From Squalus acanthias (taxonomy: Eukaryota): 64,000 bases of DNA. The position numbers and the translations under genes were made by a program. The notes beneath the pieces were generated by a model that worked only from the letters and a program-made list of their open reading frames with translations, searched no databases and was not told the origin of the DNA. This document shows, piece by piece, positions 404 to 56,619 of this stretch (position 1 is its first letter; each line of letters starts with the position of its first letter). The DNA lies in NCBI GenBank assembly GCA_030390025.1, contig JASTWF010000048.1:496001-560000 (forward strand). The letters run 5' to 3'.

Positions 404-442
404 CACAGCGTTTGAGAAAGCGGCTCCCCATCGACAAAAACC
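404..442 (+). other. 23-RSS of V1
   Basis: CACAGCG (404-410) + 23 bp + ACAAAAACC (434-442). Confidence 0.95.
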
Positions 443-479
443 TGCAGCGGATGAATTGGAGTTCAGTGATCATTTTCCA

Positions 480-495
480 CCAACAGGTGGCAGCA
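480..495 (+). promoter_or_regulatory. CTCF-like motif 3' of V1 RSS
   Basis: CCAACAGGTGGCAGCA resembles the CCASYAGRKGGCRS core. The paralogous site at 46472 is a full match. Confidence 0.55.
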
Positions 496-1529
496 CTAGA
501 TGGAAGTACAGTGCAAATGTTCTGCCGATAAGGTCAGAGCATCATAGAATGATCCAGTACGGAAGGGGGCCATTCGGACCATCGTGCCTGTACCAGGTCT
601 TTGAAAGAGCTATCCAATTAGTTCCACTTCCCCCTGCTCTTTCGCCATATTGCTAATTCTTTCCCTTCACGTTATTATTCAATACAATTTTTAAAGTTAT
701 TTTTGAAGCTGCATCCACCACTCTTTCAGACAATGTATTCGGCATTAAAACAACTCGCTGCATAAAGAAAAAAATCTCCTCATCTTCCCCACTGATTCGT
801 TAGCCAATTACTTTAAATCTGTGCCCTTTGTTTACCGTCCCTTCTGCCACTGGAAAGAGTTTCTCCTTATTTAGTCTCATCAAATCATTTATGATTTTGA
901 ACACCTCTGTCAAATTGTCCCTTCAGGTTCTCTGCTCTAAGGAGAACAAACCCAACTTCTCCACTCTCTGCACGTAATTTAACCTCTGCATTCCTGGTGG
1001 CAGACAAGTGAATCTCTTCTGCGCACTCTCTGAGGACTTGACATTAACTTGGCTCCATTTAGTTTATATTGCCAGGTGACAGCTCGAAATGGAACTTCAG
1101 TGTTGACGTTTCGCCACCTGGTGCCAGCTCGAGATAGATGTTCAGTGCTTATTTCCGCCACAAGTTGGCAGCACTTGTGTCATGCGCACATTGACAAAGT
1201 TGTATGGACGCTCGCGGCCTTTTTAATCGGCGCCATTGGATGGAGGGATTGAGGCAGAACAGGTTTCAACACAGAGCAAGACTCAGCTCACGTTGCACAG
1301 TATCAGCATTGGCTCAGTGGTTCGCACTTTCCTCTCTGAGTGAGAAGGCCGTGGCTTGAAGTTAAACGCCATCGGCTTGAGCCAATCATTCAGGATGACA
1401 CTTCATTGCCTGTACTAAGGCAGCATCGCACTGGCGGAAGGGCAGTACTGGAGGAGTGTTGCACGGTCGGAAGACACATCTTAAAATCATCTGCCCTCTC
1501 GGGTGAACAAAAAAGAAGAATGAAAGAAA

Positions 1530-3077
1530 GACTTGCATTTCTACTGCACTGTTCAAGACGACATCACGTCTAAAAGCGCCTTACGACCAAAGAAATACAT
1601 TTATAAGTATAGTCATTTGTAACGTAGGACACTTTGCAGACAATTTTTGCACAGCAAGCTCCCACAAACCGCAATAAGATACTGGATTAGTCAATCTTTT
1701 TAGTGATGTTGGTTGATGATATATATTGGCCCACGAAATCGGGGAGAATGCCACTGCACATCTTCCAATAGTGTCCATGGGCAGATGGGGCCTTGTTTTA
1801 CGTCTCTTTCGAAAGAAGGCACCACCGACAGTACAGCGCTCCCTCAGTACTACCCATCTGACAGTGCATGCACACTCAGTAATGCGCCTCCGACAGTGCA
1901 GCACTCCCTCACAACAGCCCCTCCGACAGTGCAGCGCTCCCTCAGTATTGCCCATCTGACAGTGCACACACACTCAATACTGCACCTCCGACAGTGCAGC
2001 GCTCCCTCAGTACTTCCCATCTGAGAGTGCACGCAAACTCAATAATGCGCCTCCGACAGTGCAACGCTCCATCAGAGCTGCCCCTCCGACAGTGCAGCGC
2101 TCCCTCTCTACTGCCCTTCTGACAGTGCAGCACTCCCTCAGTACATCCCCTGTGACAGTGCAACGCTCGCTCAGACCTGCACTTCAGACAGTTCAGCGCA
2201 CCCTCAGTACTGCCCGGCCGACAGTGCAACGCTCCCTCAGTGCTGTTCCTTCGACAGTAAAGCGATCCCTCAGAATTGCCCCTCCGACAGTGCAGCGCTC
2301 CCTCAGTACTGCTCCTCCGACAGTGAAACGCTCACTCAGTATTGCCCCTTTCACAATGCAGCACTCCCTCAGTACTGCCCCTCCGACAGTGCAGCGCTCC
2401 CTCAGTACTGCCCCTCCGACAGTACAGTGCTCCCTCAATAATGCACCTCCGACAGTGCAGCGCTCCCTCAGTCCTGCATCTCAGACAGTGCAAAGCTCCC
2501 ACAGTACTGCCCCTCCGACAGTGTAATGCTCCCTCAGTACTTCTGATGCGACACTGCAGCGCTCCCTCAGTACAGCTCGTCTGATAGTGCAGCGCTCCTG
2601 CAGTATTGCCCTTCTGACAGTGTAGCTTGTTCTCAGTACAGCCCCTCCGACTGCGCAGTGCTCCCTGACTATTGCCCCTCCGACAGTTTAGCGCTCCCTC
2701 AGTAATGCCCCTCTGACAGTGCAGCGCTCCCTCAGTACTGCCCCTCCAACACTGCAGTGATCCCTCAGTACTGCCCCTCTGCAGTGCAGCGTGCCCTCAG
2801 TACTGCCCTTCTGACAGTGCAGCGCTTCCTCAGTACTGCCCCTCCGATCGTGCAGCGCTCCCTCATACTGCCCCTCCGACAGTGCAGCGTTTCCTCAGTA
2901 CTTCCCCTCTGACAGTGCAGAGCTCCCTCAGTACTGCCACTCTGACAGTGCAGAGCTCCCTCAGTATGTTTGCGCGCAGTGTCGTCCTGAGTTATGTGTT
3001 TGTGTCTCTTGTGTGGGGCTCGAACGCCCAGCCTTCTGATTCAGTGTCAACAGCACTATCTGAGCCACGGCTGACAC
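1530..3077 (-). mobile_element. Shark DeuSINE (SacSINE1-like) with internal ~33-bp minisatellite expansion (~1826-2965)
   Basis: tRNA-like head (reverse complement of ctgagccacggctgacac) at ~3060-3077, Deu-type body, tail cttgcatttcta near 1530, and tandem ccgacagtgcagcgctccctcagtactgcccct units. Confidence 0.75.
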
Positions 3078-3086
3078 GTGACTTCA
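3077..3086 (+). promoter_or_regulatory. CRE-like TRBV promoter decamer (V2)
   Basis: CGTGACTTCA ~75 bp upstream of the leader ATG, resembling AGTGAYRTCA. Conserved at 49055-49064. Confidence 0.5.
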
Positions 3087-3160
3087 GTATATGACGCTTC
3101 AAACATAATCCGACACTCCGGCGGAGAAAGGACTATTCTGTCCTTGTACCGGAACTAAAC

Positions 3161-3209
3161 ATGTTTCGTGAAGTGTCCTATTTAATCTTGTCGATTGCTT
3201 TAATTTCAG
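3161..3209 (+). CDS. TRBV: Leader exon of V2
   Basis: MFREVSYLILSIALIS(G) followed by a phase-1 GTAAGT donor at 3210. Confidence 0.9.
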
Positions 3210-3949
3210 GTAAGTTTAAACAATGCGCCAATCTGAACGTCGGAACACAATGCATATTTAACAATAGTTTCTATGATTAGGCTGGTTTAATCCACGAAAA
3301 CATAGATTCCTACTTTTATAGGGTACAGAAGCAATGAAGTTATGCTAAACCATTATAAAACACTGGGTATGCATCAGATCAACTAATGTGTTCAGTTCTG
3401 GGCATCACACAGGCCAAGGATGTCAAGGCCTTGGAGACAATGAAATGAGATTTACCAGAATGGTACCAGGAATGAGGGAGTTCAGTTACACGGAGAGACT
3501 GGAGAAGCTTGATTTTTTCTCCTTGGAGAAGGGAAGATTAGAGGAGATTTAACAGAGGTGTTCAAAATTATAATGGGTTTCGTTAGAGTAAATAAGGAGA
3601 AAATGTTTCCACTGGCAGGAGTGTCGATAACCAGAGGACACAGAGGGAAGCTGACTGGCAAAATAACCAGTAGGGAGATGAGTAGAATTTATTTTGCACA
3701 GCGAGTTGTTTTTTGGAATGCACAGCCTGAAAGTGTGGTGGAAGGAGATTCAATAGTAAGTTTCAAACGGGAATTGTGTACATACTTAAGATGGTAAGCA
3801 TTACTGTACTATGAGGAAAGAGCTTGTTGGCAGTGGGACTAATGGATAGCTCTTTGAAAAAGCCGGTACAGGCAATATGGATAAATTGGCCTTCTTCTGT
3901 ACTATATAATTCTATCAAAACAAATCTGACTCTTTCCTCCATTTGACAG

Positions 3950-4243
3950 AAGTGTCTGCTTCGTTCGTTGACCAGTCGCCGAAAACTGTGTCTGTTGGCT
4001 CAGGAAAATCGGTCGTAATGAGATGTATCCTAAGGAACAGTAACTATCGCGACATGTACTTGTACAGACAAGGGACAAGCCGGGAACTCGTTGCTCTATT
4101 CCATTCAGCTGGGACCGACCACGTTTCAAATTACACCTCCGGACCCTTCAAAGCCCAGAGACCCAGCGACACCGAGTTTACTCTGGAACTCATCGGAGCC
4201 TCTCAGTCGGACACCGCCGTCTACTTCTGCGCTTGCACTAATG
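3950..4243 (+). CDS. TRBV: TCR beta V exon (V2), open frame but conserved Trp41 replaced by Leu
   Basis: Acceptor at 3948-3949. Frame ...MRC...DMYLYRQ (TTG at 4060-4062)...VYFCACT. Paralog V11 has TGG at this codon. Confidence 0.85.
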
Positions 4244-4282
4244 CACGGCGGGTGAAAACACCGCCTCTCTGTGACAAAAACT
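4244..4282 (+). other. 23-RSS of V2
   Basis: CACGGCG + 23 bp + ACAAAAACT (4274-4282). Confidence 0.9.
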
Positions 4283-4579
4283 CCTTGAACCAGAACCAGA
4301 GGAATGCTATGAGTTCACTCGCCAGATGGTGGCGCTGTGGCCCTTCGACACCCGCGAACACCCGGAAGTGTCCCCCCCGACCGTTCATTCATTGCACGCA
4401 GATCGGGATGTTACCCATTTGATCCACGAGATGCTAACTTCATGTAAACATTGTGAGAACCTGGACGTGTTTAGGTGGAGAAAACGCTTCTGGTCTAACG
4501 TCCAATATTTCCATTGTAGCCGAGAATTGATCGATATTTAAAAAAAAAGTTAGCTTTCATTTTGTTTGTAAAACTGCTT

Positions 4580-4960
4580 TCTTTTCTCTCTCTCTCTTGC
4601 CTTGTCTCTCTCTCTATCCATCTCTCGCTCGCTCTCGCTCTCGCTCTCTTTATCTCTGTCGTGTCTCTCTGTCTGTATCTATCTCTTTCTCTCATTATCC
4701 CTCTCTGTTTCCCTCTATCGTGTCTCTCTTCTGTCTTGCTCAGTCTGCCTCTCTCACTCACTCATTGTCTCTCTGTCGCTCTCATTTTTTCTAACTCCAT
4801 TTCTGTGTGTCTCGTCTCTCTTTCTCTCATTCTCTCTCTGTGTTTCTATCTATGTTTATCGCTGTGTCTGTCCTTCTGTCTCTCTCTGTCTGTCTCTCCC
4901 TGCCACTCCCTCGGCCTCTCTCACCCATTCTCTCACATTCTCTCCCTTTCTCTACCTCAT
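4580..4960. repeat. CT-rich low-complexity tract
   Basis: Degenerate (CT)n/(CTGT)n. Paralog at ~50025-50400. Confidence 0.85.
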
Positions 4961-5330
4961 TTCACAATTCGTTCTGAACCTCGATCTCCACACGGTAGCA
5001 GCGGTTTTATTAAGGTTTCTAGAACCTTACATAAATTAGTTTCCTTCTAAGATCTTTCAGATCAAGTCTCAGATAGGTTGCATTTGTCGTTTTCACTTTT
5101 TACTTTGAGGACATTATAATTTTATCAGTTCAATAAACCCGACGTATTATTTGACTTAACCTGTAGAGTGCATATAAGCGAGAAGTTCGCACCGCAATTT
5201 GAGGAAAGTAATTTGTTTCTTTCCTTTTCTCTCACTTCTGCTCCTGCCTCAATCCCTTTCATACTCCCTGCCATCACCTATTGTACTCTCACGATTGATC
5301 TGCCTTAATGTTTTTTAAATACTCTTTCAG

Positions 5331-5630
5331 ATTTTCGTTCCCAACGACTGTTCATCCAGAGCCCGTCGGCCACCGTCCAGGTTCTAGGGGAGGAAGCCGT
5401 GTTCTACTGCGGAATCGGGCAGGGCAAGATGAGTAACTATTGTTTGGCCTGGTACGTGCAGATCGGTGACCGCCTGGATTGGATCAGATCGGCTGTACTT
5501 CCTGCATCCAACAGCAGAAAAAGATACTGAAGTCTATTACGAGCCTACAAATAACACTTTCACCCTGTCCCTGAAAAACGCCCTGTTCAAGAACAGCGGA
5601 ATATATTACTGTGGGGCCGGCGAGGATGCG
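5331..5630 (+). pseudogene. TRBV: TCR V pseudogene (V3): frameshift and LINE-disrupted RSS
   Basis: After acceptor 5329-5330 the frame reads FIQSP...FYC...LAWYVQ...DWI and stops at TGA 5528-5530. The NNTFTLSL...SGIYYCGAG half is in another frame. Heptamer CACAGTA (5631-5637) runs straight into LINE sequence. No leader identified. Confidence 0.85.
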
Positions 5631-5639
5631 CACAGTATT

Positions 5640-6226
5640 CTGCGGCGAGTGTCTCACCTCCTGACTCCGCAAAGCCATGCCACCATCTACAAGGCACAAG
5701 TAAGGAGTGCGATGGAATACTCTGCACTTGCCTGAATGAGTGCAGCTCCAGCAACACGGAAAAAGCTCGACACCATCCAGGACAAAGCAGCCCGCTTGAT
5801 TGGCACAACATCCACCACCTTAAACATTCACTCCCTCCACCACCGGCGTACCGTGGCTGCAGTGTGTACCATCTACAAGATGCACTGCGCCACCTCGCCG
5901 ATGGTTCTGCTGCAGCACCTCCCAAACTCGCGACCTCTACCACCTAGAATGAGAAGGGCAGCAGGCGCATGGTTACACCACCACCTCCAAGTTCCGCTCC
6001 AAGTCACACACCATCCTGACTTAGAAGTATATCGCAGATCCTTAATCGTCGCTGGGTCAAGGTCCTGGAAATCCCTCCCGAACAACACTGTGGGAGCACC
6101 TTCACCACATAGACAGCAGCGGTTGAAGAAGGGGGCACTCCAACACCTTCTCTAGGGCAATTAGGGAGGGACAATAAATGCTGGCCTTGCCAGCGATACC
6201 CACATCCCATGAACGAATTTTAAAAA
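5640..6226 (+). mobile_element. 5'-truncated CR1/L2-group LINE 3' fragment inserted in the V3 RSS
   Basis: Encodes an ORF2 C-terminus-like peptide (TIYKAQVRSAMEYS...KKLDTIQDKAARLIG). Ends gccagcgatacccacatcccatgaacgaattttaaaaa, the same 3' end as the SINEs ending at ~26220, 37380 and 44010. Confidence 0.8.
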
Positions 6227-7722
6227 TATGTTATAGGAATTCAGGGGATCTACGCGAAAATTCTCAATCGAATAAAGTACCATTCTCCCCAACTCCTCTG
6301 TGCTCGCCGATATATTTTGGCTCCCAGCTGAGCAGCACTTCAACTTTAAAATTCTCATCCTCGTGTTCAAATCCCTCCCTTCCTTGTCTATGTAACCTTC
6401 TCCAGCCCTACAACCGTCCGAGGTCTTTGCTCTCCTCCTACTCGGACCTCTTTGGCATCCCCGATTTCCATCTCTCGACCATTGGCGGCCGCGACTTCAG
6501 CTGGCTCAGTAATAATCTCTGAAATTCTCTAATCCCTAAACCTCTCCAACTCTCTCTCCTCCTTTAAGACACTCCTTAAATCCTACATATACGACCAAGA
6601 TTTACTTCACCTGTTCTAATCTATCCTTATGTGTTTCGCTGTCAGATTTTGTTTGATAACTGTGCAGTTGGTTGTGTTATTTGGATTTACTACATTAAAG
6701 GCGCTATATAAATGCCAATTGTTTTGTTGTAAAGTCATCTCTGCATGCGTCAATAGGAAAGCACAATAACCAGTAAAATTACTGAGCAAGTCTGTCTTCT
6801 CAATGCTGATTACTCGAGAGTTGTTCTGTGATTGATTGATAGCCATCCACACTGAAGTTTACAATCAAAATAATTCGCCCCATCAGTCCATCTGGATTAG
6901 CATGCATTTCTCTCGGAATTAGAACCAACAAACTTATAATTTACTGCAGATTCTTCCATTTTCTATCTATATTCTTGCCTATTTCAATGCGATTGACACC
7001 GTGTACGTTCCTACTAACTGATCTATTAGTCTTAAGTATCACCACTGCAGAAAAGTGAGCGGAATATCCTAGAAATTCAGCAGTTCTTCTCCCGATCACC
7101 CACCCTTTCTCTAGGAAAGGGGCTTCCTGTTAAATCAAAGAATCAGATTAATCCTAAATATATCGGTTCCCATGCCAGTAATAAAACAACTTGTTGTTTT
7201 TATTAATGGCGACAGAAAGTAGAAGCAAGTCTAGACGTCTATGCACTTACAAGTAGGCTATCCATAGGGAACTACGAACTCCCAACCAATCCAGGGGCGT
7301 TCTCAGCACAGAATACCAAAGTATTGATGAAAACAATACAGATTTATGCACCTTAAAGACAAATGCGAAGCAGTCAGATTACTTGTCCTGAACCTATCAA
7401 TTTCGCGATTACTGTCATGTGATCCTTAAGTTTCATATGCTATCACGTCAGTAGATGGCGATGTTGCACCACATCTATTCCAGTCTCACTGGATATTCAA
7501 TAAATGATCAGTTAATTTAGCCAGATGCTATACATATCAAATTTGACCAGGTAACTAACAATTGAAATATAAACAGGCTCTCTCCAAACTAGGCTATATT
7601 TCTTTACACAAATACATTGATTCTTCTTTAGTGACATAAACGGATGCCTGCTGCTTGCTTAGCTTTGGACTGTGGAATCCTAAAGTCCTAATCTAATCCA
7701 TCTGTTAGCCTCTATCACACAG

Positions 7723-8273
7723 TAATTAGGAAAGCTAATAGAATGTTATCGTTTATTGCCAGTGTAATTGAGTACAAAATTAGGGCGGTTATGCTGCAGT
7801 TATACAGGGCATTGGTGAGACCACATTGGAGTACTGAGTACAAGATTGGTCTCCTTATTTAAGAAAGGATGTAAATGCGCTGGAAACAGTTCAGAAAAGG
7901 TTTACTGCATTAATACTTGGAATGGGCGGGTTGTTTTATGAGGAAAGGTTGAAAGGCTAGGCTTCTATCCGCTGGAGTTTAGAAGAGCAAGAGGTGACTT
8001 GATTGAAACATATAAGATCCTGAGTGGTCTGGACAGGGTGGATGTGTAGAGGATGTTTCCTCTTGTGGGAGAATCTAGAACTAGGGGTCACTGTTTAAAA
8101 ATAAGGGGTCGTCCACTTAAGACAGAGATGAGAAGAATTTTTTTTGGAACTATCTTCCTCAGAGGGCGGTGGAAGCAGAGTATTTAAATATTTTTAAGGC
8201 AGAGGGAGATAGATTCTTGTTCAGCAAAGGGGTGAAAAGTTATCGAGGGTAGGCGGGAATGTGGAGTAATCGA
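7723..8273 (+). mobile_element. CR1 LINE 3' fragment
   Basis: Degenerate LYRALVRPHLEY...GLYPLEFRR coding segment. Paralog at ~53728-54390. Confidence 0.8.
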
Positions 8274-8366
8274 ATCACCTGACGAAGGAGCAGCGCTCCG
8301 AATGCTTGTGATTTCAAATAAAGCTGTTGGGGTATAACCTGGTGTTGTGCGACTTCTCACATTTGT
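8272..8366 (+). mobile_element. Short Penelope-type terminal fragment with a minimal hammerhead-like motif
   Basis: atcacCTGACGAaggagc-agc-gctccGAATgcttgtgat...aataaa...ctggtgttgtg. Absent from the paralogous copy. Confidence 0.6.
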
Positions 8367-8416
8367 TCACATTCTGTACGACAGATACAACTTGAACGTG
8401 GCTGCGTCGTCTGGGA

Positions 8417-8433
8417 AAGGATGTCACTTCCGG
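8417..8433 (+). promoter_or_regulatory. CRE-like decamer plus Ets site, V4 promoter
   Basis: AAGGATGTCA overlapping ACTTCCGG ~110 bp before the leader ATG. The paralog is AATGATGTCACTTCCGG at 58500-58516. Confidence 0.6.
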
Positions 8434-8540
8434 GGGCTCGGTTTCGGGTCGTACCTGGACTGCCGGTCAGTCAGAATCGGAGGCACTCGGTGTGAGAACA
8501 CGTTCATTGCAGCAATCAACCCGTCCACTTCGATCCAATT

Positions 8541-8586
8541 ATGCAAATAGATTTAATTTTATTTATTTTTCTACTTTTCCTGCCGG
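8541..8586 (+). CDS. TRBV: Leader exon of V4
   Basis: MQIDLILFIFLLFLP(G) followed by a GTAAGT donor at 8587. Confidence 0.9.
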
Positions 8587-9386
8587 GTAAGTATACTGCA
8601 TTCAAATAAGATTCTTTTTAGAGCGATGTATTCCATTAGACAGTAGATTTCACTAAACTGGCAGCGATTGATGTGCGGCTGAATGGGTGCAAACTCGTCT
8701 TAGGCTTTACCGCATTAACGGAGTTGAATATCAGACGCAAAGCGAATAACGCGTGGCCCATAGATTAGCACCCGTTTTGCGCTACCGCCCGTCGAATTTC
8801 TAACCCACTGTTTAATATTCACTTGGTTAAGTTATAAATTGGGGATCAATTGTTTATTTAGGAACAATATAGAAACAGGTTCACTGGAAATCGAGGGATT
8901 GCCACACCAGGAACCAATGCAGGTCAGCGAGTCTGTGCTGCAGGGGTGATAGGCGAGCGGGACTTATTGTGAAATAGGATAATAATGACATATGATGTTT
9001 TTGCGAAATACAACACATGCAACTGACTTACTCTAGTCGCGGACCTGCTCCATTTTACAAGCAAATTCGGGCATCGATTTAAGATAATTGACAAAAGAAC
9101 CAGAGGGGACATGAGGAGAAATTGCTTTTTTTTCATCCCAGCGAGTTATGATGACCTGGTATCCACTGCCTGTAAGGCCAATGGCAGTAGTTTGAACAGT
9201 CACTTTCGAAAGGGAATTTGTTCAAGACCTGAAAGGGAGAACGTTGCAGGGCTAAGGGGAAAGAGCAGGTGAGTGGGATTAATTGGAGAGCTTTACAAAA
9301 AGATCCGACACAGACACTATAGTCCGAATGGCCTCATTCTGTGCTTTCGGATTTAATTAATTCTCTTAATTTGTTTTGTTTTTTAG

Positions 9387-9690
9387 ATTTAACACACGGA
9401 TTGAGGCCTCTTCAAAGTCCACTCACGCTGGTGATTGAAGAAGACAAACTTACAACCATAAGTTGCTATGAACAGGATTCGACACCTCAATCCATGCTCT
9501 GGTACCGCCAATCGGCTGGCCAGGGTCTCACGTTGATCGGATACATTCAAGTCGGTGGAACGGTTCGTTATGAAGAGAAGGATGAAACCCGTTTTGAAAT
9601 TTCAGGAAACGGCATTAGAAACTCCAATTTGAAGCTTCCCAGGTCCGCACCTGCAGACACGGCGGTCTATTACTGTGCGACGAGTAAACG
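9387..9690 (+). CDS. TRBV: TCR beta V exon (V4), apparently functional
   Basis: Polypyrimidine tract and AG at 9385-9386. Open frame PLQSP...ISCYEQ...MLWYRQSAGQGLTLIGY...DTAVYYCATS. Confidence 0.92.
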
Positions 9691-9729
9691 CACAGTGTTG
9701 CAGACTGATTGAGCGCCCTGTCAAAAACC
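9691..9729 (+). other. 23-RSS of V4
   Basis: CACAGTG + 23 bp + TCAAAAACC. Confidence 0.95.
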
Positions 9730-9762
9730 CAGCAGGCTCGAAGCATGAAGAAGGAACGAAAG

Positions 9763-41925: not shown

Positions 41926-41962
<37 letters not shown>

Positions 41963-45361: not shown

Positions 45362-46101
45362 GTAAGGCAAAATAACAAACTTAAAAGAATAATGTATTAT
45401 AATGTGAGCTGTGTTTCAGTTGATTGCTTTCTTGCCACCGAGCCAGAATGCCGCGGATTCGAGTCTCACTACAGAAATTGAACAGCAAATCAAGGCTGAC
45501 GCTCCCAGTGCCAGTGAAAAGGGAGTGCTGCAATGTCGGAGGTGCAGTAGTGAGGGAGTGCTACACTGTCGGAGGGGCAGTACTGAAGTTGTGCTGCAGT
45601 GTCGGAGAGGCAGTACTGAGGGAGCACTCCACTGTCGGAGGGGCAGTACTGAGGGAGCGCTGAACTGTCGAAGGGTCACTACTGAATGTGGGCTGCAGTG
45701 TCGGAGAGGCAGTACTGAGGGGATGTTGCACCGTCGAAGGGGGAGTCCTGAGGTTGTGCCGCACTGTCGGAGGTTGCATCAGTCGGATGTTACGTTAATT
45801 AAAACTTCCCTCTCAGGTGGACGTATGTTAAACAATATTGATCCCGCAAACAGAACCTAAAAAAATACCCAGTTTTCACATTGCACTTCGTGGAATCTTG
45901 CTTTGTGAAAATTGACTGTCGTGATTACTACATTACAAGAGCGCATAAACTTAGAAAAGTTCTTCCTTGGTTGTAAAATGCTTTGGGACGTCCTGTGGTC
46001 GCGAAACATAGTGTAAAAATGTATTTATGTCATTATATGTTGTCACTGTTCTATTCAATTATTGACGGAAATAAGAATGTAATCGATGTTCCTTTCGACA
46101 G

Positions 46102-46395
46102 GAATACTCGCCTCGTACGTGGAGCAGTCGCCTTCTGTCCTATCGATTGGGGCAGGAGAGTCGACCACGCTCAGATGCACGCTGACGAATACTGGCTATC
46201 CCAACATGTTCTGGTACAGACAACAACCCAACCGGGCATTAGAAGCTCTTTTCTCTTCTGCTGGCGAAGGTGATGCTAGGAAATACACGTCCGAGTCTTT
46301 TAAGGCCGAAAGAATCAGCAATACGCTGTTTACTTTGGAACTGAGCGCCGCCTCTCCGTCTCACACCGCTGTCTATTACTGTGCTTGTAGTATCG
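46102..46395 (+). CDS. TRBV: TCR beta V exon (V10), apparently functional; paralog of V1
   Basis: AG at 46100-46101. Open frame with Cys23, Trp41 and YYCACS. Confidence 0.92.
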
Positions 46396-46434
46396 CACAG
46401 CGTTTGAGAAAGCGGCTCCGCAGCTACAAAAACC
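46396..46434 (+). other. 23-RSS of V10
   Basis: CACAGCG + 23 bp + ACAAAAACC. Confidence 0.95.
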
Positions 46435-46471
46435 TGCAGCGGATGACTGGGAGGTCAGTGCTCATTTTCCG

Positions 46472-46487
46472 CCACCAGGTGGCAGCA
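46472..46487 (+). promoter_or_regulatory. CTCF motif 3' of V10 RSS
   Basis: CCACCAGGTGGCAGCA fully matches the CCASYAGRKGGCRS core, 37 bp after the nonamer. Confidence 0.7.
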
Positions 46488-47539
46488 CTAGATGGAAGTT
46501 CAGTGGAAATTTTCTGCCTTCCAGGTCATAGCATCATGGAATGATCCAGTACGGAAGGAGGCCATTCGGACCATCGTGCTTGTACTGGCTCTTTGAAACA
46601 GCTATCCAATTAGTCCCACTTCCCCTGCTCTTTCGCCGTATTGCAAATTTTTCCATTCACTTATATATTTAATTCCGTTTTTAAAGTTATTATTGAATCT
46701 GCTTCCACCGCTCTTTCAGACAATGTATTCCCGATTATAACAACTCGCTGCGTAAATAAACAATCTCCTCATCTTCCCCTCTGATTCGTTTAACAATTAC
46801 TTTAAAACTGTGCCCTTTGTTTACCATCCCTTCTGCCACTGGAAAGATTTTCTCCTTATTTAATCTAATCAAAGCTAATATGATTTTGAACACCGCTGTC
46901 AAATTTTCGCTTGTGGTTCCGTGCTCTAAGGAGAACAAACTCAACTTATCTACTCTCTCCACCTAACTTAACTTCTGCATTCCTGGTGGCAGTCGAGAGA
47001 ATCTCTTCTGCGCCCTCTCTGAGGATTTGACATTAATTTTGCTCCATTTAGTTCATATTGCAAATTGACAGCTCGATATGGAACTTCAGAGCTTTCGTTT
47101 CGCCACCAGATGCCAGCTCGAGATAGATGTTCAGTGCTTATTTCCGCCACAAGTTGGCAGCACTTGTGTCATGCGCACCTTGACGAAGTTGTTAGACGGT
47201 CGGCCCTTCTGTATGTGCGCTCGCGGCCTTTTTAATCGGCGTCATTGGCTGGAGGGATTGAGGCAGAACAGGTTTCAACACAGAGCAAGACTCAGCTCAC
47301 GTTGCACAGTATCAGCGTTGGCTCAGTACGTAGCACTTTCCTCTCTGAGTGAGAAAGCCGTGGCTTGAAGTTCAACGCCTTCGTCTTGAGCCAATCATTC
47401 AGGATGACACTTCAGTGCCTGTACTAAGGCAGTGTCGCACTGTCGGAAGGGCAGTACTGAAGGAATGTTGCACGGTCGGAGGAACCATCTTAAAATCGTC
47501 TGCCCTCTCGGGTGAACAAAAAAGAAGAATGAAAGAAAG

Positions 47540-49055
47540 ACTTGCATTTCTATTGCACTGTTCACGACGACAGCACGTCCGAAAGCGCATTACGGCCAAA
47601 GAAATACATTTGAAGTATAGTCTGTTGTAACGTAGGACACTTTGCAGACAATTTTTGCACAGCAAGCTCCCACTAACAGCAATAAGATACATGATTAGTC
47701 AATCTTTTCAGTGATGTTGGTTGAGGATATATATTGGCCCACGAAATCGGGGAGAATGCCACTGCACATCTTCCAATAGTGTCAGTGGGCAGACGGGGCC
47801 TTGTTTTACATCTCTTTCGATAGAAGGCACCACCGACAGTACAGCGCTCCCTCAGTACTACCCATCTGACAGTGCATGCACACTCAATACTGCGCCACCG
47901 ACAGTGCAACGCTCCCTCAGAACTGCCCCTCCGACAGTACAGCGTTCCCTTAGTACTGCCCTTCTGAGAGCGCAGCACTCCCTCAGTACTGACTTCTGAC
48001 AGTGCTACGCTCGCTCAGACTGCCCCTCCGACATTGCAACACTCCCTCAGTACTGCGTCTCCGACAGTGAAACGTTCACTCAGTATTGCCTCTTCGAAAA
48101 TGCAGCAGTCCCTCAGTACTGCCTCTCCGAGAGTGCAGTGCTCCCTCAGTACTGCCCCTCTGAAAGTGCGGCGGTACCTCATTACTACCCCTCCAACAGT
48201 GCAGCCCTCCATCAGTACTGCCTCTCCGACAGTGCAGCACTCCCTCAGTACTGCCTCTGCGACAGTGCAACGCTCCATCTGTATTGCCCCTTCCACAATG
48301 CAGCACTTCCTCAGGACTGCCCCTCCGACAGTGCAACGCTCCCTCAGTACTGGGCCTCCGAGAGCGCAGCCCTACCTCATTACTGCCCTTCCAACAGTGC
48401 AGCCCTCCCTCAGTACTGCCTCTCCGACAATGCAGTGCTCCCTCAGTACTGCAGCTCCGAGAGTGCAACACTCCCGCAGTACTGCCACTCCGACAGTGCA
48501 ACGATCCCTACAGTACTGCCCCTCCGACAGTGCAAAACTCCCTCAATACTTCCCCTGCGACAGTGCAGCGCTCCCTCAGTCCTGCTCCTCTGACAGTGAA
48601 GCGCTCCCACATTACTGGCCCTCTGACAGTGCAGATCTCCCTCAGTACTGTCCCTCTGACATTGCAGCCACACTTCAGCACAGCCCCTCTGACAGTGCAG
48701 CACATCCTCAGTACTGCCCCTCCGAGAGTGCCGTGCTCCCTCAGTACTGCCCCTCCGACAGTGCAACGCTACCTCAATAATGCCCCTCCGATAGTGTAAT
48801 GCTCCCTCAGTACTTCCCCTGTGACAATGCAGCGCTCCCTCAGTACAGACCGTCTGACAGTGCAGCGCTTCCTCAGTACTGCCCCTCTGACAGTGCAGAG
48901 CTCCCTCAGTACTGCCTTTCAGACAGTGCAGAGCTCATTCAGTACGGGTGCGTGCAGTGTCGTCTTGAGTTATGAGCTTGTGTCTCTTATGTGGGGCTCG
49001 AACCCCCAGCCTTCTGATTCAGTGTCGACAGCACTATCTGAGCCACGGCTGACAC
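47540..49055 (-). mobile_element. SacSINE1-like SINE with 33-bp array; paralog of 1530-3077
   Basis: Same flanks and same repeat unit. Confidence 0.75.
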
Positions 49056-49138
49056 GTGACTTCAGTATATGACGCTTCAAATATAATCCGACACTCCGGC
49101 GGAGGAAGGACCATTCTGTCCTTGTACCGGAACTAAAC

Positions 49139-49187
49139 ATGCTTCGTGAAGTGTCTTATTTAATCTTGTCGATTGCTTTAATTTCTG
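49139..49187 (+). CDS. TRBV: Leader exon of V11
   Basis: MLREVSYLILSIALIS(G) followed by GTAAGT at 49188. Confidence 0.9.
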
Positions 49188-49396
49188 GTAAGTTTAAACA
49201 ATGCGCCAATCCACTAGCAGGAGTGTCGGTAAACAGAGGACACAGTATGAATGTGACTGAGGAAAGAGCTTGGGTGGTAGTGGGACTAATGGATAGCACT
49301 TTGAAAGAGCCGGTACAGGCAATATGGACAGAATGGCATTCTTCTGTACTGTATCATTCTAACAAAACAAATCTGACTCTTTCCTCCATTTGACAG

Positions 49397-49690
49397 AAGT
49401 GTCTGCTTCGTTCGTTGACCAGTCGCCGCAAACTGTGTCCGTTGGCTCAGGAAAATCGGTCGTAATGAGATGTATCCTGAGGAACACTAACTATCGCAAC
49501 ATGTACTGGTACCAACAAGGGACAAGCCGGGAACTCGTTGCTCTATTCCGTTCAGCTGGGACCGGCCACGTTTCAAATTACACCTCCGGACCGTTTAAAT
49601 CCCAGAGACCCAGCGACACCGAGTTTATTCTGGAACTCACCGGAGCCTCTCAGTCGGACACCGCCGTCTACTTCTGCGCGAGCAGTGATG
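49397..49690 (+). CDS. TRBV: TCR beta V exon (V11), apparently functional; paralog of V2
   Basis: AG at 49395-49396. Frame MRC...NMYWYQQ...VYFCASSD. Confidence 0.92.
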
Positions 49691-49729
49691 CACGGCGTGT
49701 GAAAACACCACCTCTCTGTGACAAAAACT
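49691..49729 (+). other. 23-RSS of V11
   Basis: CACGGCG + 23 bp + ACAAAAACT. Confidence 0.9.
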
Positions 49730-50760
49730 CCCTGAACCAGAACCAGAGGAATGCGATGGTTTCAACCGCCAGATGGTGGCGCTGTGGCCCGTCGAAACCC
49801 GCGAACACCCCGAAGGTACCCTTCCGAACGTTCATTCATTCCCCGCAGATCGGGATGTTTCCCATTTGATCCACTAGATGCTAACTTCATGTAAACATTG
49901 TGAGAATCTGGACGTTTTTAGTTGGAGAAACCACTTCTGGTCTAACTTCCAATATTTCCATTGTAGCCGAGAATTGATCGATATTTAAAAAAAAAGTTAG
50001 CTTTCATTTTGCTTGTAACATTGCTTTCCTTTCTCTCTTTCTTGCTTCTGCCTCTCTCTCTATCCATCTCTCTTCCGCTCTTGCTCTCTTTATCTCTGCC
50101 GTGTCTCTCTGTCTGTATTTCTCTCTTTCTCTCATTATCTCTCTGTTTCCCTCTATCTTGTCTCTCCAGCTGTTTTGTTCAGTCTGTCTCTCTCACTGAC
50201 TCATTGTCTCTCTGTCGCTCTCATTTTTTCTACCTCCATTTCTGTGTGTCTCGTCTCTCTTTCGCTCATTCTCTCTCTGTGTTTCTATGTATGTTTATCG
50301 CCGTGTATGTCTTTCTGTCTCCCTCTGTCTTTCTCTCCCTGCCTGTCTCTCTGCCTCTCTCACACTCTCTCTCACATTCTCTCCCTTTCTCTACCTCATT
50401 TCACAATTCATTCTGAACCTCGATCTCTACACGTTAGCAGCGGTTTTATTACCGTCTCTAGAACCTTACATTAATTTGTTTCCTTCTAAGATCTTTCAGA
50501 TCCAGATTCAGCTAGCTTTTATTTGCCGGTTTCACTTTTTAGTTTGACGCCATTATAATTTTATCAGTTCAATAAATCCGACGTATAATTGTACTTAACC
50601 TGTTGAGTAAATATAAGAATGAAGTTCGCACCGCAATTGGTGGAAAGTAATTTGTTACTTTCCTTTACTCTCTCTTCTGCTCCTGCCTCAGTCCCTTTCA
50701 TATTCCCTGCCACCCTCTATTGTCCTCTCACGATCGATCTGCCTTAATGTTTTTAAAATG

Positions 50761-51056
50761 TTCGTTCCCAACGACTCTCGTCCAGAGCCCGTGGGCCACC
50801 GTCCAGGTTCCAGGGGAGGAAGCCGTGTTCTACTGCGGCATCAGGCAGGGCAATCTGAGTAACTATTGTTTGGCCTGGTACGTGCAGATCGTTGACCGCC
50901 TTGATTGGATCAGATCACTTGTACTTCCTGCATTTAACTACAGAAAAAGCTACTGAAGTCTATTATGAGCCTAAAAATAACACTTTCACTCTTTCCCTGA
51001 AAAACACCCTGGTCAGGAACAGCGGAATATATTACTGTGGGGCCAGCGAGGATGCG
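50761..51056 (+). pseudogene. TRBV: TCR V pseudogene (V12); paralog of V3
   Basis: Splice acceptor deleted relative to V3, same frameshift, heptamer TACAGTG (51057-51063), same LINE insertion (51066-51644). Confidence 0.85.
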
Positions 51057-53139
51057 TACAGTGTTCTGCGCCGAGTGTCTCACCTCCTGACTCCCCAAAG
51101 CCTTTCCACCATCTACAAGGCCCAAGTAAGGATTGCGATGGAATACTCTCCACTTGTCTGGATGAGTGCAGCTGCAACAACACTGAAAAAGCTCGACACC
51201 GTTCCAGGACAAAGCAGCCTGCTTGACTGGCACCCATTCCACCACCTTAAAATTCACTCCCTCCACTACAGTGGCTGCAGTATGTCGCATCTGCAAGATG
51301 CACAGCACCAACTCGCCGAGGCTTCTTCGTCAGCACCTCCCAAACCAGCGACCTCTACCTCCTAGAAGGAGAACTGCAGCCGGCGCATATTTATACCACC
51401 ACCTCCAAGTTCCCCTCCAAGTCACACAGCTTCCTGACTTAGAATTATATCGCAGATCCTTCATCTTCGCTGGGTCAAGATCCTGGAACTCCCTCCCTAA
51501 CAGAACTGCGCGAGTACCTTCAGCACACGGACTGCAGCGGTTCAAGAAGGGGGAACACCACCACCTTTTCAAGGGTAATTGGGGAGGGACAATAAACGCT
51601 GCCCTTGCCAGCGATGCCCACATCCCAGAAACGAATTTTTAAAAAGTGTTATAAGAATTCAGGGGATCTACGCGAAAACTCTACATCGTATAAAGTCCCA
51701 TTCCCCCCAACTCCTCTGTGCTCGCCGATATACTTTGGCTCCGAGTTGAGCAACGCTTCCATTTTAAAATTCTCATCCTCGTTTTCCAATCCCTGCCACC
51801 CTATCTGTGTAATCTTCTCCAACTCCACAACCCTCCGAGATATCTGCACTCCTCCTACCCGGACCTCTTTTGCATCCACGATTTCCATCTCTCCATCATT
51901 GGCGGCCGTGACTTCAGCTGGCTAAACCATAATCTATGAAATTCTCTTATCCCTAAACCTCTCTCTCCTCCTTTAAGGCACTCGTTAAATCCTACCTATT
52001 CGACCAAGTTTTATGTCACCTGCTCTAATCTATCCTTATGTGTTTCGCTGTCAGATTTTGTCTGATAACTGTGTAGTTGGTTGTGTTAGTTGGTTTTACT
52101 ACATTAACGGCGCTATATAAATGAAAATTGTTTTTGTTGAAAAGTCATCTCCACAAGCGTCAATAGGAAAGAACAATAACCAATAAAATTACAGAGCAAG
52201 TTTGTCTAATCAATGCTGATTACTCGAGAGTTGTTCTGTGATTGATTGATAGCCATCCACCCTGAAGTTTACATCCAAAATACAGAGGAGAATTCGCCTC
52301 ATCAGTCCATCTGGAGTAGCATGCATTTCTCTCGGAATTAGAATCAACAAACTTATAATTTACTGCACATTCTTCCATTTTCAATCTATTTTCTTGCCTA
52401 TTGCAATGCAATTGACACCGTGTACGTTCCTACTAACTGATATATTAGTCTTAAGTATCAACACTGCAGAAAATTGAGTGGAATATCCTGGAAATGCAGC
52501 AGTGCTTCTCCCGATCACACACCCTTTTCTCGAGGAAAGGGGTTTCGCTGTTTAATCAAAGCATCAGATTAATGCTAATTATATCGGTTCTCATGCCAGT
52601 AATAAAATAATTTGTTGTTTCATTAATGGCGAAAGAAAGTAGAAGCAAGTCTAGACGTCTATGCACTTACAAGTAGGCTATCCATCGGGGACTACGAACT
52701 CACTAACCAATCCAGGGGAGTTCTCAGCGCAGAATACCAAAGTATTGATGAAAACAATAGAGATTTATGCACCTTAAAGACAGATGCGAAGCAGTCAGAT
52801 TACTTGTCCTGAACCTATCAATTTCGCGATTACTGTCATGTGATCCTTAAGTTTCATATGCTACCACGCTAGTAGATGGCGATGTTGCACCACGTCTATT
52901 CCAGTCTCAATGGATATTCAGTAGAAGATGAGATAATTTAGGAAAATGCTATAAATATAAAATTTGACCAGGTAACTAACAGTTCAAATGTAAACATGCT
53001 CTCTCCAAACTAGGCTATAATTCTTTGCACAAATATATTGATTCTTCTTTAGTGTCAAACGCGATGCATCCTGCTTGCTTAGCTTTGGACTGTGGAACCG
53101 TAAAGTCCTAATCTAATCCTTCTGTTAGCCTCTATCACA

Positions 53140-54390
53140 ATACCTTGAGTATTGTGTGCAGTGTTGTTCGACTTATCTGAGGAAGGATGTTCTTGCCATG
53201 GAGAGTGTGCAGCGAAGATTCACCAGACTGATACCTGGGATGCCAGGAATGACGTACGAGGAGAGATTGTCTCGATTGGGCTTATACTCGCTGGAGTTTA
53301 GAAGAATCAGAGGAGATCTCATTGAAAATTATAAAATTCTAACAGGGCTAGACAGACTGGATGCAGGAAGGATGTTCCCGATGGCGGGTGAGTCCAGAAC
53401 AAGAGGCCACAGTCTAAAGATAAGGGGTAAGTCATTTAGCACAGAGATAAGGAGGTATTTCTTCACCCAGAGAGTGGAAACCTGTGGAATTCTCTACCAC
53501 AGAAGGCAGTTGAGGCCAAGTCAACAGAAGGCAGTTGAGGCCAAGTCAGTAAATATATTCAAGAAGGAGTTAGATATATTTATTCAGGCTAAAGGTATCA
53601 AGGGATATGGGGAGAAGGCAGGGACAGGGTACTGAGTTTGGATGATCAGCCATGATCTCATCGAATGGCAGAGCAGGCTCGAGGGGCCAAATGGCATACT
53701 CTTGATCCTATCTTCTATGTTTCTATGTAATTAGGAAAGCTAATAGAATGTTATCGTTCATTGCGAGGGTAATTGAATACAAAAGTAGGGAGGTTATGCT
53801 TCAGATATACAGGGCACTGGTGAGACCACATCTGGAGTACTGTGTACAGTATCGGTCTCCTTATTTGAGGAAGGATGTAAATTGGTTGCAAGCATTTCAG
53901 TGAAGGTTTACTAGACTAACACTTGGAATGGACGGGTTGTCTTATGAGGAAAGTTTGAACAGGCTAGGCTTCTATCCGCTGGAGTTTAGAAGAGTAAGAG
54001 GTTACTTGATTGAAACATATAAGATCCTGAATAGTCTGGACAGGGTGGATGTGGAGAGGATGCTTCCTCTTGTTGGAGAATCTGGAACTAGGGGTCACCG
54101 TTTAAAAATAAGGAGTCGCCCACATAAGACAGAGATGAGGAGAATTTTTTTTCTCACAGAGGGTCGTGACCCTTTGGAACTCTCTTCCTCAGAAGGCGGT
54201 GGAAGCAGAGTCTTTGAATATTTTTAAGGCAGAGGTAGATAGATTCTTGTTAAGCAAGGGGGTGAAAGGTTATCGGGGGTAGGCGGGAAAATGGAGTAAT
54301 CGGATCAGCCATGATCTTACTAAATGGCAGAGCAGGCTCGAGGGGCCAAGTGGCCCACTTCTGCTCCTAATTCGGATGTTCGTACGTATG
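53140..54390 (+). mobile_element. Two tandem CR1 3' fragments
   Basis: ORFs 53156-53635 and 53928-54227 (GLYSLEFRR.RGDLIE), each with its own tail. The first is absent from the paralogous copy at ~7720. Confidence 0.85.
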
Positions 54391-55868
54391 TTTGGATAAA
54401 TGCTCATATTACAAAGATATTAATATTGACGCCAGTATTGTGAAGCATTTTTTACCGTTATGTTAAATGCTAAATACCTGCTAAATAATATAAATTTAAA
54501 GGGGGTGCACGGAGAGAGAGACCTGGAAGTGTTTTTGGACTAATCTTTGAAGGAGACACGACAGAACATGACACATAACCAAGCAGTTAATAAAACAGAT
54601 GGTATCCTGGGCTTTATAAATAGAGTCATACAGTACAAAAGCCACCAAGTTATGCTAACCCCATATAAAACAATAGCTCGGACACATGTGGAGAATTATG
54701 CCCAATTCTGGGCACAACACTTTAGGAAAAACGTGAATACTTTGGAGAGGGCACAGAAGAGATTGAGAAGAATGGTTCCAGGGATACGGTTACGTGGATA
54801 GACTGGGCACGCTGGTGTTGTTCCCCTTAGAGCAAAGAAGGCCGGGAGGAGGTTTGACAGAGGTTTTTAAAATTATCAAGAATTTTAGAAGTGTAAATAG
54901 GGAGACATTGTTTCCAATGGCTGAAGGGTAGATAACCAGAGGGCGCAGATCTAAGGTGATTGGCCAAACAACCAGAGGCGACATGAGGAATATCTTTTTT
55001 ACACAACGAGTGCTTAGTATTTAGAATACACTGCCTGATTGGGTGGTGGATAAAGATTCAGTGGTAGCTTTCGAAAGGGAGTTGGATAAATCCTTGTAGG
55101 AGGAAAAATTGCAAGGTTACGGGGAAAGCACGGGGGAGTGCCCTTCGTGTGAATCGGCGCATACTCAATATTATGAACGTTGTCCTCCTGCACTGTACTA
55201 TTCTAATACTCTGTGATGTTATACACTCTCCTGCTCGTTCCTCTCGCGTTCAGGTTATGGCGGGAAAGGGTGGTCTATCTTCAAGGCCATCATAGTATGA
55301 GATCGGAGCGGGCTAAATGCAACAGAAAGAATGGAAGGGACAGAACGAAGGAAAGACCGATGAAAAGCAGACATAATGAAACGTCAAATAGAAAGAAGGA
55401 AGCAAAGAAGGAAAGAAAGAAAGAAGGAATGCAAAGTGGGAAAGAAAGAAGGCAAGACAAGTCAGTAAGAAGGAGTGATTTCATAACCCAGCCCATTTCC
55501 CTAGTATTACCAAACATAAATGTTTCAGGTCTATGCGGAAAGAGCAGGGGAGTGGGACTAATTGGACAGCTCTTTCAAAGACCCTGCACAGGCACGATGG
55601 GCCGAATGGTCTCCTTCTGCGCTGTAAGATGCTACGATTTGACGCTACGGTCTTCCACCTACGTACACAATTTGGCAGAAACAATGCTATCAAAGGAAAT
55701 GCTTCTCATTTGTTCATATCTTTGTCATGGGTGGTCCAAGCAGACGATTGGCTGGTCAGTCCTCCCGCGTAATTCATCACCACCGGTGGCAGCACCGTTG
55801 AGGAGAGCAATTGTACAGCTGACACGTTGTCGCTAAGTAACGCTGCCTGTCATCCCCGGGGAAGGGCG

Positions 55869-55932
55869 ATGTGTTTCTCAGCGAGAATGTTCTTAATATT
55901 GGTCACCGTATCACTCGGACATTTGATCTGTT
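55869..55932 (+). CDS. TRBV: Leader exon of V13
   Basis: MCFSARMFLILVTVSLGHLIC + T, then GTAAGT at 55933. An alternative ATG lies at 55887. Confidence 0.82.
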
Positions 55933-56209
55933 GTAAGTACTATGCATTGACATATCAATTGCAAACAGTAAATGAAAGAAATTGCAAGTGGAAGTAGATT
56001 CAGTAATAACTTTCAAAATGGAATTGGATCAATACTTGAGTGCTGGGGTGGGTGGGGGTATTTGAAGGGCTGCAGGGAAGTGGGAATAACTGGAGAGCTC
56101 TTTCAAAGAGGCGGAATGGTCTGCTTCTGTGCAGTAAGATTCGACGATTTTATGCTACAATTTTCCTTCTATGATTCTAACATATTGTCTTTGTTCAAAC
56201 CTAATCCAG

Positions 56210-56506
56210 GGGTTCGGGCTGCACCCACTGTGGTCCAGTCTCCAGCCGCGGCCGCTATTCTACCGGGAAAGCCGCTCACTTTCATGTGCAGTTTGGAGGG
56301 AGCGAGCATGGGCAGCTATACCATGCACTGGTACAGGCAACATGGAGAGACAATACAGTGGATTTGCAATGAGAACGGCAGCTATGGGCCCAGTTTCGTG
56401 AAGCGATTCAAAGTGCACCTCGACGCAGAAAACAACCAGTTCACTCTGCAGCTGGAAGGCTCCGTGCTGACAGACTCTGCGACCTATTACTGTGCGGCGT
56501 ATTTCG
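56210..56506 (+). CDS. TRBV: TCR beta V exon (V13), apparently functional
   Basis: AG at 56208-56209. Frame VVQSP...MCSLEGASMGSYTMHWYRQ...NNQFTLQL...DSATYYCAA, resembling the fish 'SMSSYTM' TRBV family. Confidence 0.88.
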
Positions 56507-56545
56507 CACAGCGATACAAAACTGCCGCAGACTGATGCAAAAACC
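56507..56545 (+). other. 23-RSS of V13
   Basis: CACAGCG + 23 bp + GCAAAAACC. Confidence 0.93.
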
Positions 56546-56619
56546 TTCTCACCTCCCAGCGTGCGCTCTCGCCACCTGTGATCGAGCACCCTCAAGGCAG
56601 CTCTCTGATGGAGCGAAAT

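What the first reader, a model, noticed from the sequence alone, without database searches (positions are those of the whole stretch)
404..56581. CTCF-like motifs sit just 3' of several V RSSs
Seen: CCACCAGGTGGCAGCA 37 bp after the V10 nonamer (46472) and CCAACAGGTGGCAGCA at the same place after V1 (480). GCCAGATGGTGGCGCTG lies ~38 bp after V2 (4321) and V11 (~49768). V1/V10 and V2/V11 are different families with otherwise dissimilar flanks, yet the spacing and orientation match. Weaker hits occur right after V9 (TCTCAGATGGCG, ~42685), reversed after V13 (~56570) and ~440 bp after V7 (CTACAGAGGGCGCT, ~21567). Intergenic hits are at 7448/52869 (forward) and 1111 (reverse). Established: RSS-adjacent CTCF elements raise usage of proximal mouse IgH V genes during cohesin-driven RAG scanning. 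Inference: a similar V-accessibility design may operate in a cartilaginous-fish TCR locus, which would make it ancestral to jawed vertebrates or convergent.
Basis: partly seen in the sequence, partly recalled or inferred. Interest (0 to 1): 0.7.

Follow-up and report, generated by a model that had tools for sequence, protein, structure and literature searches.

The report
DJ-facing CTCF motifs in shark TCR-beta
In this shark T-cell-receptor beta region, one lineage of variable gene pieces carries a motif for the genome-folding protein CTCF right behind its cutting signal, and most such motifs along both gene arrays point toward the pieces they must join, which suggests sharks likely fold these genes as mice do, although binding and any effect on gene use are untested.

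Summary
The four strong motifs are real, but they are not four events. V1/V10 and V2/V11 are copies from one duplication, and their two families are sisters, so there is probably one origin. The V9 and V13 'hits' fail.

The window lies in the left of two tail-to-tail TCR-beta loci (353 V found in 2.06 of 2.28 Mb). RSS-adjacent motifs mark that one V clade (68/72 and 11/14) and 1 of 275 other V. The clade is absent from the ~160 kb nearest D, unlike mouse Igh.

The stronger signal is locus-wide: 302 motifs face their own D-J-C and 36 face away. After collapsing duplicates it is 18 of 23 site families (p=0.005), and 0 of 100 permuted matrices give as many hits.

Across related organisms, differences fall at 2/38 motif places versus 40/125 flank places. 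Among paralogues there is no significant excess conservation.

Best reading: a mouse-Tcrb/Igh-like CTCF landscape; binding and V usage are untested. No paper found for sharks. This scan noted RSS-adjacent motifs earlier in other windows of this genome.

The parts
109..442 (+). V1 exon (family 1 here) with 23-RSS at 404-442
   Evidence: relatives named TCR-beta in nurse shark and sawshark
477..495 (+). RSS-adjacent CTCF motif of V1, +34 from the nonamer, facing D-J-C
   Evidence: 18.4 bits
1109..1173 (+). two further copies of the same ~45-bp unit: 1109/1111 (near-palindrome, 15.1 reverse / 9.1 forward) and 1155 (15.0 forward)
   Evidence: clustered with the RSS-adjacent site by flanks
3952..4282 (+). 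V2 exon (family 9 here; Leu in place of the conserved Trp) with 23-RSS at 4244-4282
4319..4337 (+). RSS-adjacent CTCF motif of V2, +36, non-canonical core
   Evidence: 16.4 bits
7445..7463 (+). intergenic forward motif, just under the p<1e-5 cut-off; duplicate at 52866
   Evidence: 12.5 bits
19057..19075 (+). weak copy of a separate site class ~215 bp behind family-4 RSSs (9 of 16 members pass 12.9 bits)
   Evidence: 9.8 bits here; class
21560..21578 (+). weak copy of the locus's main intergenic CTCF element (213 copies found by flanks alone), 440 bp behind V7
   Evidence: 10.6 bits
31694..31712 (+). intergenic forward motif
   Evidence: 14.0 bits
46101..46434 (+). V10 exon (family 1) with 23-RSS at 46396-46434
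46469..46487 (+). RSS-adjacent CTCF motif of V10, +34; exact match to the published consensus CCASYAGRKGGCRS
   Evidence: 23.4 bits forward, 17.0 reverse; covered by contigs of 4 other organisms
47100..47162 (+). two further forward copies of the unit (47100, 47144)
   Evidence: 13.5 and 15.0 bits
49399..49729 (+). V11 exon (family 9) with 23-RSS at 49691-49729
49763..49784 (+). RSS-adjacent CTCF motif of V11, readable in two registers (+33, 14.8 bits; +36, 16.0 bits)
   Evidence: covered by contigs of 3 other organisms
52866..52884 (+). decayed duplicate of the 7445 site
   Evidence: 8.7 bits

Best explanation
The sites behind V1/V10 and V2/V11 are one inherited class within a locus-wide set of CTCF motifs that mostly point toward the array's own D-J-C end, and they likely bind CTCF and halt or anchor cohesin loop extrusion so that V genes are brought to the D-J recombination centre. 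Shown: the motifs, their fixed spacing in two sister V families, the orientation bias in both of two tail-to-tail TCR-beta loci, and opposite-facing motifs near the left D-J-C (953,366, weak; 1,049,705, strong). Inferred from mouse: CTCF occupancy, loop anchoring, and any gain in rearrangement. The RSS-adjacent position would be this clade's version of a per-gene site; other families carry theirs about 215 bp to 3 kb away. A specific boost to RSS access as at mouse VH81X is possible but not needed.
For: 302 forward vs 36 reverse hits in the V arrays; 0 of 100 column-permuted matrices reach that total (median 32.5, max 237; at >=16.9 bits 204 vs max 53). After collapsing copies: 18 of 23 site families forward (p=0.005), 10 of 11 at >=16.9 bits (p=0.006). 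RSS-adjacent motif in 68/72 and 11/14 members. Between the sister families the motif is 12/19 identical at +34/+33 while both flanks are at chance. In other organisms, listed differences fall at 2/38 motif vs 40/125 flank places, Fisher p=0.0004. The main intergenic element, collected by flanks only (213 copies; 194 >=8 bits), changes less in the motif than beside it (7.4 vs 11.2 parsimony steps, p=3e-4), and its 40 scored matches all lie in this contig. Both stop-containing family-9 copies lost the motif. Lamprey CTCF binds the mammalian motif (PMC5504073); skate TAD borders show oriented CTCF sites (PMC10115646); mouse Tcrb and Igh V sites all face D-J-C (PMC5859386).
Against: No binding or usage data. 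Among paralogues the RSS-adjacent motif is not significantly more conserved than its flanks (p=0.12 and 0.14), and observed changes are no milder than random in family 1 (p=0.19); damaging variants and an 11-bp deletion occur in open-frame genes. 13 of 72 family-1 sites score better in reverse. RSS-adjacency is about one evolutionary event: P(>=1 of 18 families) 0.036; 11/100 permuted matrices mark >=2 families, and 7/100 mark >=1 at 16.9 bits. The right locus has only weak convergent partners (13.8, 12.7 bits). The cross-organism count needs >=80% alignment, mixes paralogues, includes V10-private changes, and 12 rows were hidden; its one family-9 change hits a high-information C in the +36 register. 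The matrix is recalled.
Confidence: 0.62

Rival explanations
1. One reading: the RSS-adjacent sites work like the mouse VH81X element, stalling RAG scanning at that RSS and raising use of that V gene specifically.
For: Fixed spacing 16-36 bp is within the mouse (17-19) and human (19 or 48) range; presence follows the V tree, as in PMC6746451; motif kept between sister families whose flanks diverged; two family-9 pseudogenes lost it.
Against: One clade only; nearest members lie ~164 kb (left) and ~390 kb (right) from D, whereas the mouse class is D-proximal; mouse Tcrb has 2 of 18 bound sites near an RSS and does not rely on scanning alone (PMC10772921); 4 open-frame family-1 genes lack the motif and one stop-containing gene keeps it.
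Confidence: 0.3
2. Passenger: a chance CTCF-like word arose once behind an ancestral V and was multiplied by tandem duplication and conversion; it may or may not be bound and has no role in rearrangement.
For: All RSS-adjacent copies trace to one clade; no excess conservation among paralogues; family-level enrichment borderline; near-palindromic core.
Against: Does not explain 18 of 23 unrelated site families facing D-J-C, the excess over permuted matrices, or fewer changes in the motif across organisms.
Confidence: 0.2
3. The motifs are bound, but act as insulators or promoter-side boundary elements for V germline transcription rather than as loop anchors to D-J.
For: Many copies of the main element lie ~1.1-1.5 kb upstream of the next family-0 leader; mouse Tcrb sites are often at promoters; the element begins with a splice-acceptor-like tract.
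Against: Insulation alone would not obviously require one orientation relative to D-J-C in both mirror-image loci, though tandem duplication preserves orientation within a family.
Confidence: 0.15

Closest known systems
RSS-associated CTCF sites of mouse and human Igh VH genes (Ciccone 2019, PMC6746451; VH81X element as reviewed in PMC7930373)
   Same: Motif at a fixed short distance 3' of the nonamer, one orientation, presence predicted by the V tree, spacer sequence not conserved between families.
   Different: TCR-beta rather than IgH; +34/+36 (16-33 after deletions); 2 of 18 families against 11 of 16 in mouse; mid and distal rather than D-proximal; binding and function untested.
CTCF-binding elements of mouse Tcrb (Loguercio 2018, PMC5859386; Allyn 2024, PMC10772921)
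   Same: Same locus type; V-array sites face D-J-C; opposite-facing sites flank the D-J-C (candidates 953,366 and 1,049,705).
   Different: About 300 predicted motifs over two loci versus 18 bound sites; a large RSS-adjacent class (mouse: 2); the motif ~2.1-2.2 kb 5' of each D faces D, whereas mouse CBE1 faces the V genes.
Paired opposite-orientation TRB loci of salmonids and pike (PMC10464911)
   Same: Two complete V-D-J-C loci in opposite orientation on one chromosome piece.
   Different: There the V genes lie in the middle; here the constant genes do, and they share only 31-34% identity.

Membership tests
RSS-associated CTCF elements (Igh type) | CTCF consensus motif | tested here: met
   68/72 and 11/14 at p<1e-5 with a recalled matrix; 31 exact matches to the published consensus behind an RSS, all family 1; family 9 does not match that consensus exactly
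RSS-associated CTCF elements (Igh type) | fixed distance within ~100 bp 3' of the nonamer | tested here: met
   50 of 63 at +34, rest 16-33 by deletion; family 9 at +36/37
RSS-associated CTCF elements (Igh type) | one orientation, toward D-J-C | tested here: met
   all read forward; 13 of 72 family-1 variants score higher in reverse because the core is near-palindromic
RSS-associated CTCF elements (Igh type) | motif more conserved than the RSS-to-motif spacer | tested here: inconclusive
   not significant among paralogues; met between sister families and across organisms, with caveats
RSS-associated CTCF elements (Igh type) | D-proximal location (mouse; intermingled in human) | tested here: not met
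   none within ~164 kb of D1 or ~390 kb of D2 (for the 160 kb not fetched, one search lists no family-1/9 hit)
RSS-associated CTCF elements (Igh type) | kept at functional genes, lost at pseudogenes | tested here: inconclusive
   2 of 2 stop-containing family-9 copies lost it (one event); 1 stop-containing family-1 copy keeps it; 4 open-frame copies lack it
RSS-associated CTCF elements (Igh type) | CTCF occupancy and higher usage of the adjacent V | not testable with these tools
   no ChIP or repertoire data were available
Tcrb-type convergent CBE landscape | V-array sites face D-J-C | tested here: met
   302 vs 36; 18 of 23 site families
Tcrb-type convergent CBE landscape | opposite-facing sites flanking D-J-C | tested here: inconclusive
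   left locus 12.9 and 21.4 bits; right locus only 13.8 and 12.7
Tcrb-type convergent CBE landscape | loops between V and D-J sites in thymocytes | not testable with these tools
   needs Hi-C or 4C
TCR-beta V segments | 23-RSS V upstream of 12/23 D, 12-RSS J and C-beta | tested here: met
   D GGGACAGGGGG at ~960,540, 29 J-like segments, C 73% identical to sawshark C-beta, all on the window's strand

The most novel reading that the evidence does not exclude
CTCF sites pointing from V genes to D-J-C are as old as the TCR-beta translocon itself. In this shark they fold two tail-to-tail loci separately, each V array toward its own D-J-C, and one V clade older than the nurse-shark/sawshark split has kept an Igh-style RSS-adjacent site that raises its use.
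Probability: 0.35. Interest if true: 0.75.

Novelty: new variant of a known kind. Interest (0 to 1): 0.5.

Why it matters
CTCF-guided V(D)J assembly has been worked out in mouse; the motif survey I read (PMC6746451) reaches only human, chimpanzee and rabbit. A D-J-facing motif landscape in a shark TCR-beta locus would put the design at the root of jawed vertebrates or show it evolved twice. The locus also offers a built-in experiment: about 70 near-identical V genes with strong, weakened, flipped or deleted sites, in two mirror-image loci, so thymus CUT&RUN and out-of-frame repertoire counts can test the effect without engineering.

Tried and rejected
(1) I first read the window as part of an inverted V array served by a single D-J-C. 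Searches found a second D-J-C on the window's strand, so this was dropped; notebook entry 1 is superseded by entry 2.
(2) V9 and V13 sites rejected.
(3) Haplotype mis-join rejected: the best left-right V identity has median 91%, max 96% (157 V), and the constant genes differ.
(4) A dispersed repeat as source of the main element is not supported (40 of 40 scored matches in this contig; 40 of 160 candidates scored).
(5) A genome-wide strict pattern (RSS plus consensus, 12-42 nt gap) found nothing outside this contig. It is exact-match and short-range, so it does not exclude sites at other loci.
(6) Sequencing runs: no RNA holder listed. Organism D gave no contig on the V11 flank.
(7) CTCF upstream motif not tested; the paper was not held.
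(8) PDB search did not classify the second constant exon beyond C1-set.
(9) The first clustering (22 families, 17 forward) chained unrelated sites and was redone.
(10) Paper searches listed no study of CTCF at shark antigen-receptor loci and no genomic map of a shark TRB locus; subscription papers are not covered.
Full report
1. Observation. All quoted strings are in the window. I scored them with a CTCF count matrix recalled from memory (MA0139.1 form, not from a call; 12.9 bits = p<1e-5, 8.0 = p<1e-4). V10 gives 23.4, V1 18.4, V2 16.4, V11 16.0, the reverse site at 1109 15.1, 7445 12.5, V7 +440 10.6 and 52866 8.7. The V9 and V13 sites score below zero. Bases 1-3233 match 45980-49211 at 85.5% and the RSS flanks of V1/V10 and V2/V11 are near-identical, so the four strong hits are two. 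A tree of 45 V proteins (up to 3 open-frame members of each of 18 families, plus two shark database proteins) makes the two families sisters (95/96), so probably one origin.

2. Locus. The window is G000:C3311:496,001-560,000. I held 2,060,000 of 2,278,436 bases; 1,240-1,400 kb and the last 58 kb were not fetched. The contig carries two complete TCR-beta loci tail to tail. Left (+): V 4-952 kb, D at ~960,540, 29 J-like segments and a C 73% identical to sawshark C-beta. Right (-): V 1,105-2,206 kb, a D, 4 J and a C only 31-34% identical to the first, with its own transmembrane exon. The window's V genes are in ordinary deletional orientation, 400-460 kb upstream of the left D. V1's relatives are nurse shark TCR-beta (65%) and sawshark TCR-beta (69%).

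3. RSS adjacency. Of 353 V genes found by a motif-plus-RSS finder, a forward hit within 150 bp occurs in 63/67 of family 1 (V1/V10), 8/11 of family 9 (V2/V11) and 1/275 of the other 16 families. The finder missed some genes, V2 among them; a tblastn recount gives 68/72 and 11/14. Spacing is +34 in 50 of 63, with 16-33 from deletions that leave the motif intact. A genome-wide exact pattern using the published consensus found 31 forward matches, all family 1 on this contig, 2 reverse (also family 1) and 0 controls. As a count of independent events the enrichment is borderline: P(>=1 of 18 families) = 0.036 and P(>=2) = 0.0005 against resampled flanks, but 11 of 100 permuted matrices mark two or more families, and the two real families are related. 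The class is missing from the D-proximal ~164 kb (left) and ~390 kb (right).

4. Orientation. The left array has 139 plus and 15 minus hits, the right 21 plus and 157 minus, so both face their own D-J-C. With slightly different overlap handling the count is 302 vs 36; permuted matrices give a median of 32.5 hits, max 237, and none of 100 reaches the real total. Collapsing 332 hits by flank similarity gives 23 site families, 18 forward (p=0.005); 10 of 11 at >=16.9 bits. Besides the RSS-adjacent class there is a class ~215 bp behind family 4 (9/16) and a main intergenic element near family 0. Collected by flanks only, that element has 213 copies, 145 >=12.9 bits and 194 >=8; its motif changes less than its flanks (p=3e-4; information content vs change rho -0.44, p=0.06; the motif window ranks 14th of 120). 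Around the D-J-C cores there are reverse motifs at 953,366 (12.9) and 1,049,705 (21.4), D-facing motifs ~2.1-2.2 kb 5' of each D (14.8, 19.6), and only weak partners for the right locus. That a motif read CCACCAGG... points downstream is the usual convention (recalled).

5. Conservation of the RSS-adjacent motif. Among paralogues there is no significant excess (family 1: 2.05 steps vs 2.44 and 2.77, p=0.12; family 9 p=0.14), and damaging variants exist. Between the families the motif is 12/19 identical at +34/+33 while the spacer (6/33) and the downstream flank (6/40) are at chance; both words were picked for looking like CTCF sites, which inflates this. Contigs of four coded organisms lie over the V10 flank and of three over the V11 flank (4 runs laid each, of 22 listed). 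By my count of the listed rows, differences fall at 1/19 vs 19/53 places and 1/19 vs 21/72 places (combined p=0.0004), and several contigs stop aligning just behind the V11 motif. Limits: close relatives only, paralogues mixed, 80% cut-off, V10-private changes counted, 12 rows not shown.

6. Mechanism. The layout is shown; the rest is inferred from mouse. CTCF bound at forward sites would stop cohesin coming from the D-J centre or anchor extrusion starting at a V promoter, as at Trbv1 (PMC10772921, passages). An RSS-adjacent site could also hold its RSS at the RAG centre, as at VH81X (PMC7930373, passages). The machinery is plausible in sharks: lamprey CTCF binds the mammalian motif (PMC5504073, passages) and skate TAD borders carry oriented motifs (PMC10115646, passages; bioRxiv 10.64898/2026.10.19.759930, two passages). 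I put 0.62 on a functional D-J-facing landscape. The RSS-specific boost is a sub-case at about 0.3, and a pure passenger is about 0.2.

7. Known systems. It works like the mouse Tcrb/Igh landscape (PMC5859386, passages and Table 2; PMC6746451, abstract, introduction, first results sections and passages). It meets the sequence criteria of RSS-associated sites but not the D-proximal location, and occupancy is untested, so I do not file it as a proven member. Paired opposite TRB loci are known in salmonids with V in the middle (PMC10464911, passages); inverted 3' V genes in amniotes (PMC11754216, passages). PMC6795676 and PMC10322711 (passages) and PMC12227049 (term search with no hits) gave no shark TRB map. 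The supplementary TRB table of PMC10322711, which I did not read, may already list a second shark C-beta.

8. Novelty and verdict. Nine paper searches listed nothing on CTCF at shark antigen-receptor loci. This scan's own notes report the RSS-adjacent motif in other windows of this locus and of other pieces; these are unchecked and not independent support. New here are the two-locus map, the duplicate-corrected orientation test and the sister-family result. New variant of a known kind; interest 0.5.

Noticed in passing
G000:C3311:1,062,109-1,099,000 (L063-L066), minus strand: A second TCR-beta D-J-C whose constant Ig exon is only 31-34% identical to the canonical shark C-beta, with a transmembrane exon bearing the conserved Lys, 4 J and a non-canonical D (GGGACAGCAACAAC). 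It shares V families with the first locus; one 59% homologue is in the database. Possibly a second TCR-beta isotype.
   Followed up: partly
G000:C3311:4,164-2,205,602: At least 353 V genes in 18 families in two mirror-image arrays with similar family order from D outward; the best left-right identity is 91% median, 96% max, which suggests exchange between the loci.
   Followed up: partly
window 21530-21578 and 212 further copies: The main intergenic CTCF element is directly preceded by a conserved branch-point/polypyrimidine/CAG tract that looks like a splice acceptor; no RNA evidence was available.
   Followed up: no
window 455-495, 1085-1173, 46447-46487, 47075-47162: The RSS-adjacent motif is one of three copies of a ~45-bp unit, each with TTCAGTG-like letters ~10-15 bp upstream; ~600 bp that includes repeat-like DNA separates the first copy from the other two.
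   Followed up: partly
window 3952-4243: V2 has Leu in place of the conserved Trp yet keeps its RSS and motif.
   Followed up: no
window ~5330-5640 and ~50750-51070: Frame-broken V pseudogene pair; no complete RSS was found behind either. V9 (42644) has an in-frame stop.
   Followed up: no
G000:C3311:958,357 and 1,101,105: Each D has a D-facing CTCF motif ~2.1-2.2 kb upstream, with unlike flanks.
   Followed up: partly
family-1 RSS spacers, e.g. window 46403-46425: The 23-bp RSS spacer changes less than the V exon among paralogues in families 0 and 1 (2.3 vs 5.0 and 1.5 vs 1.9 steps).
   Followed up: no
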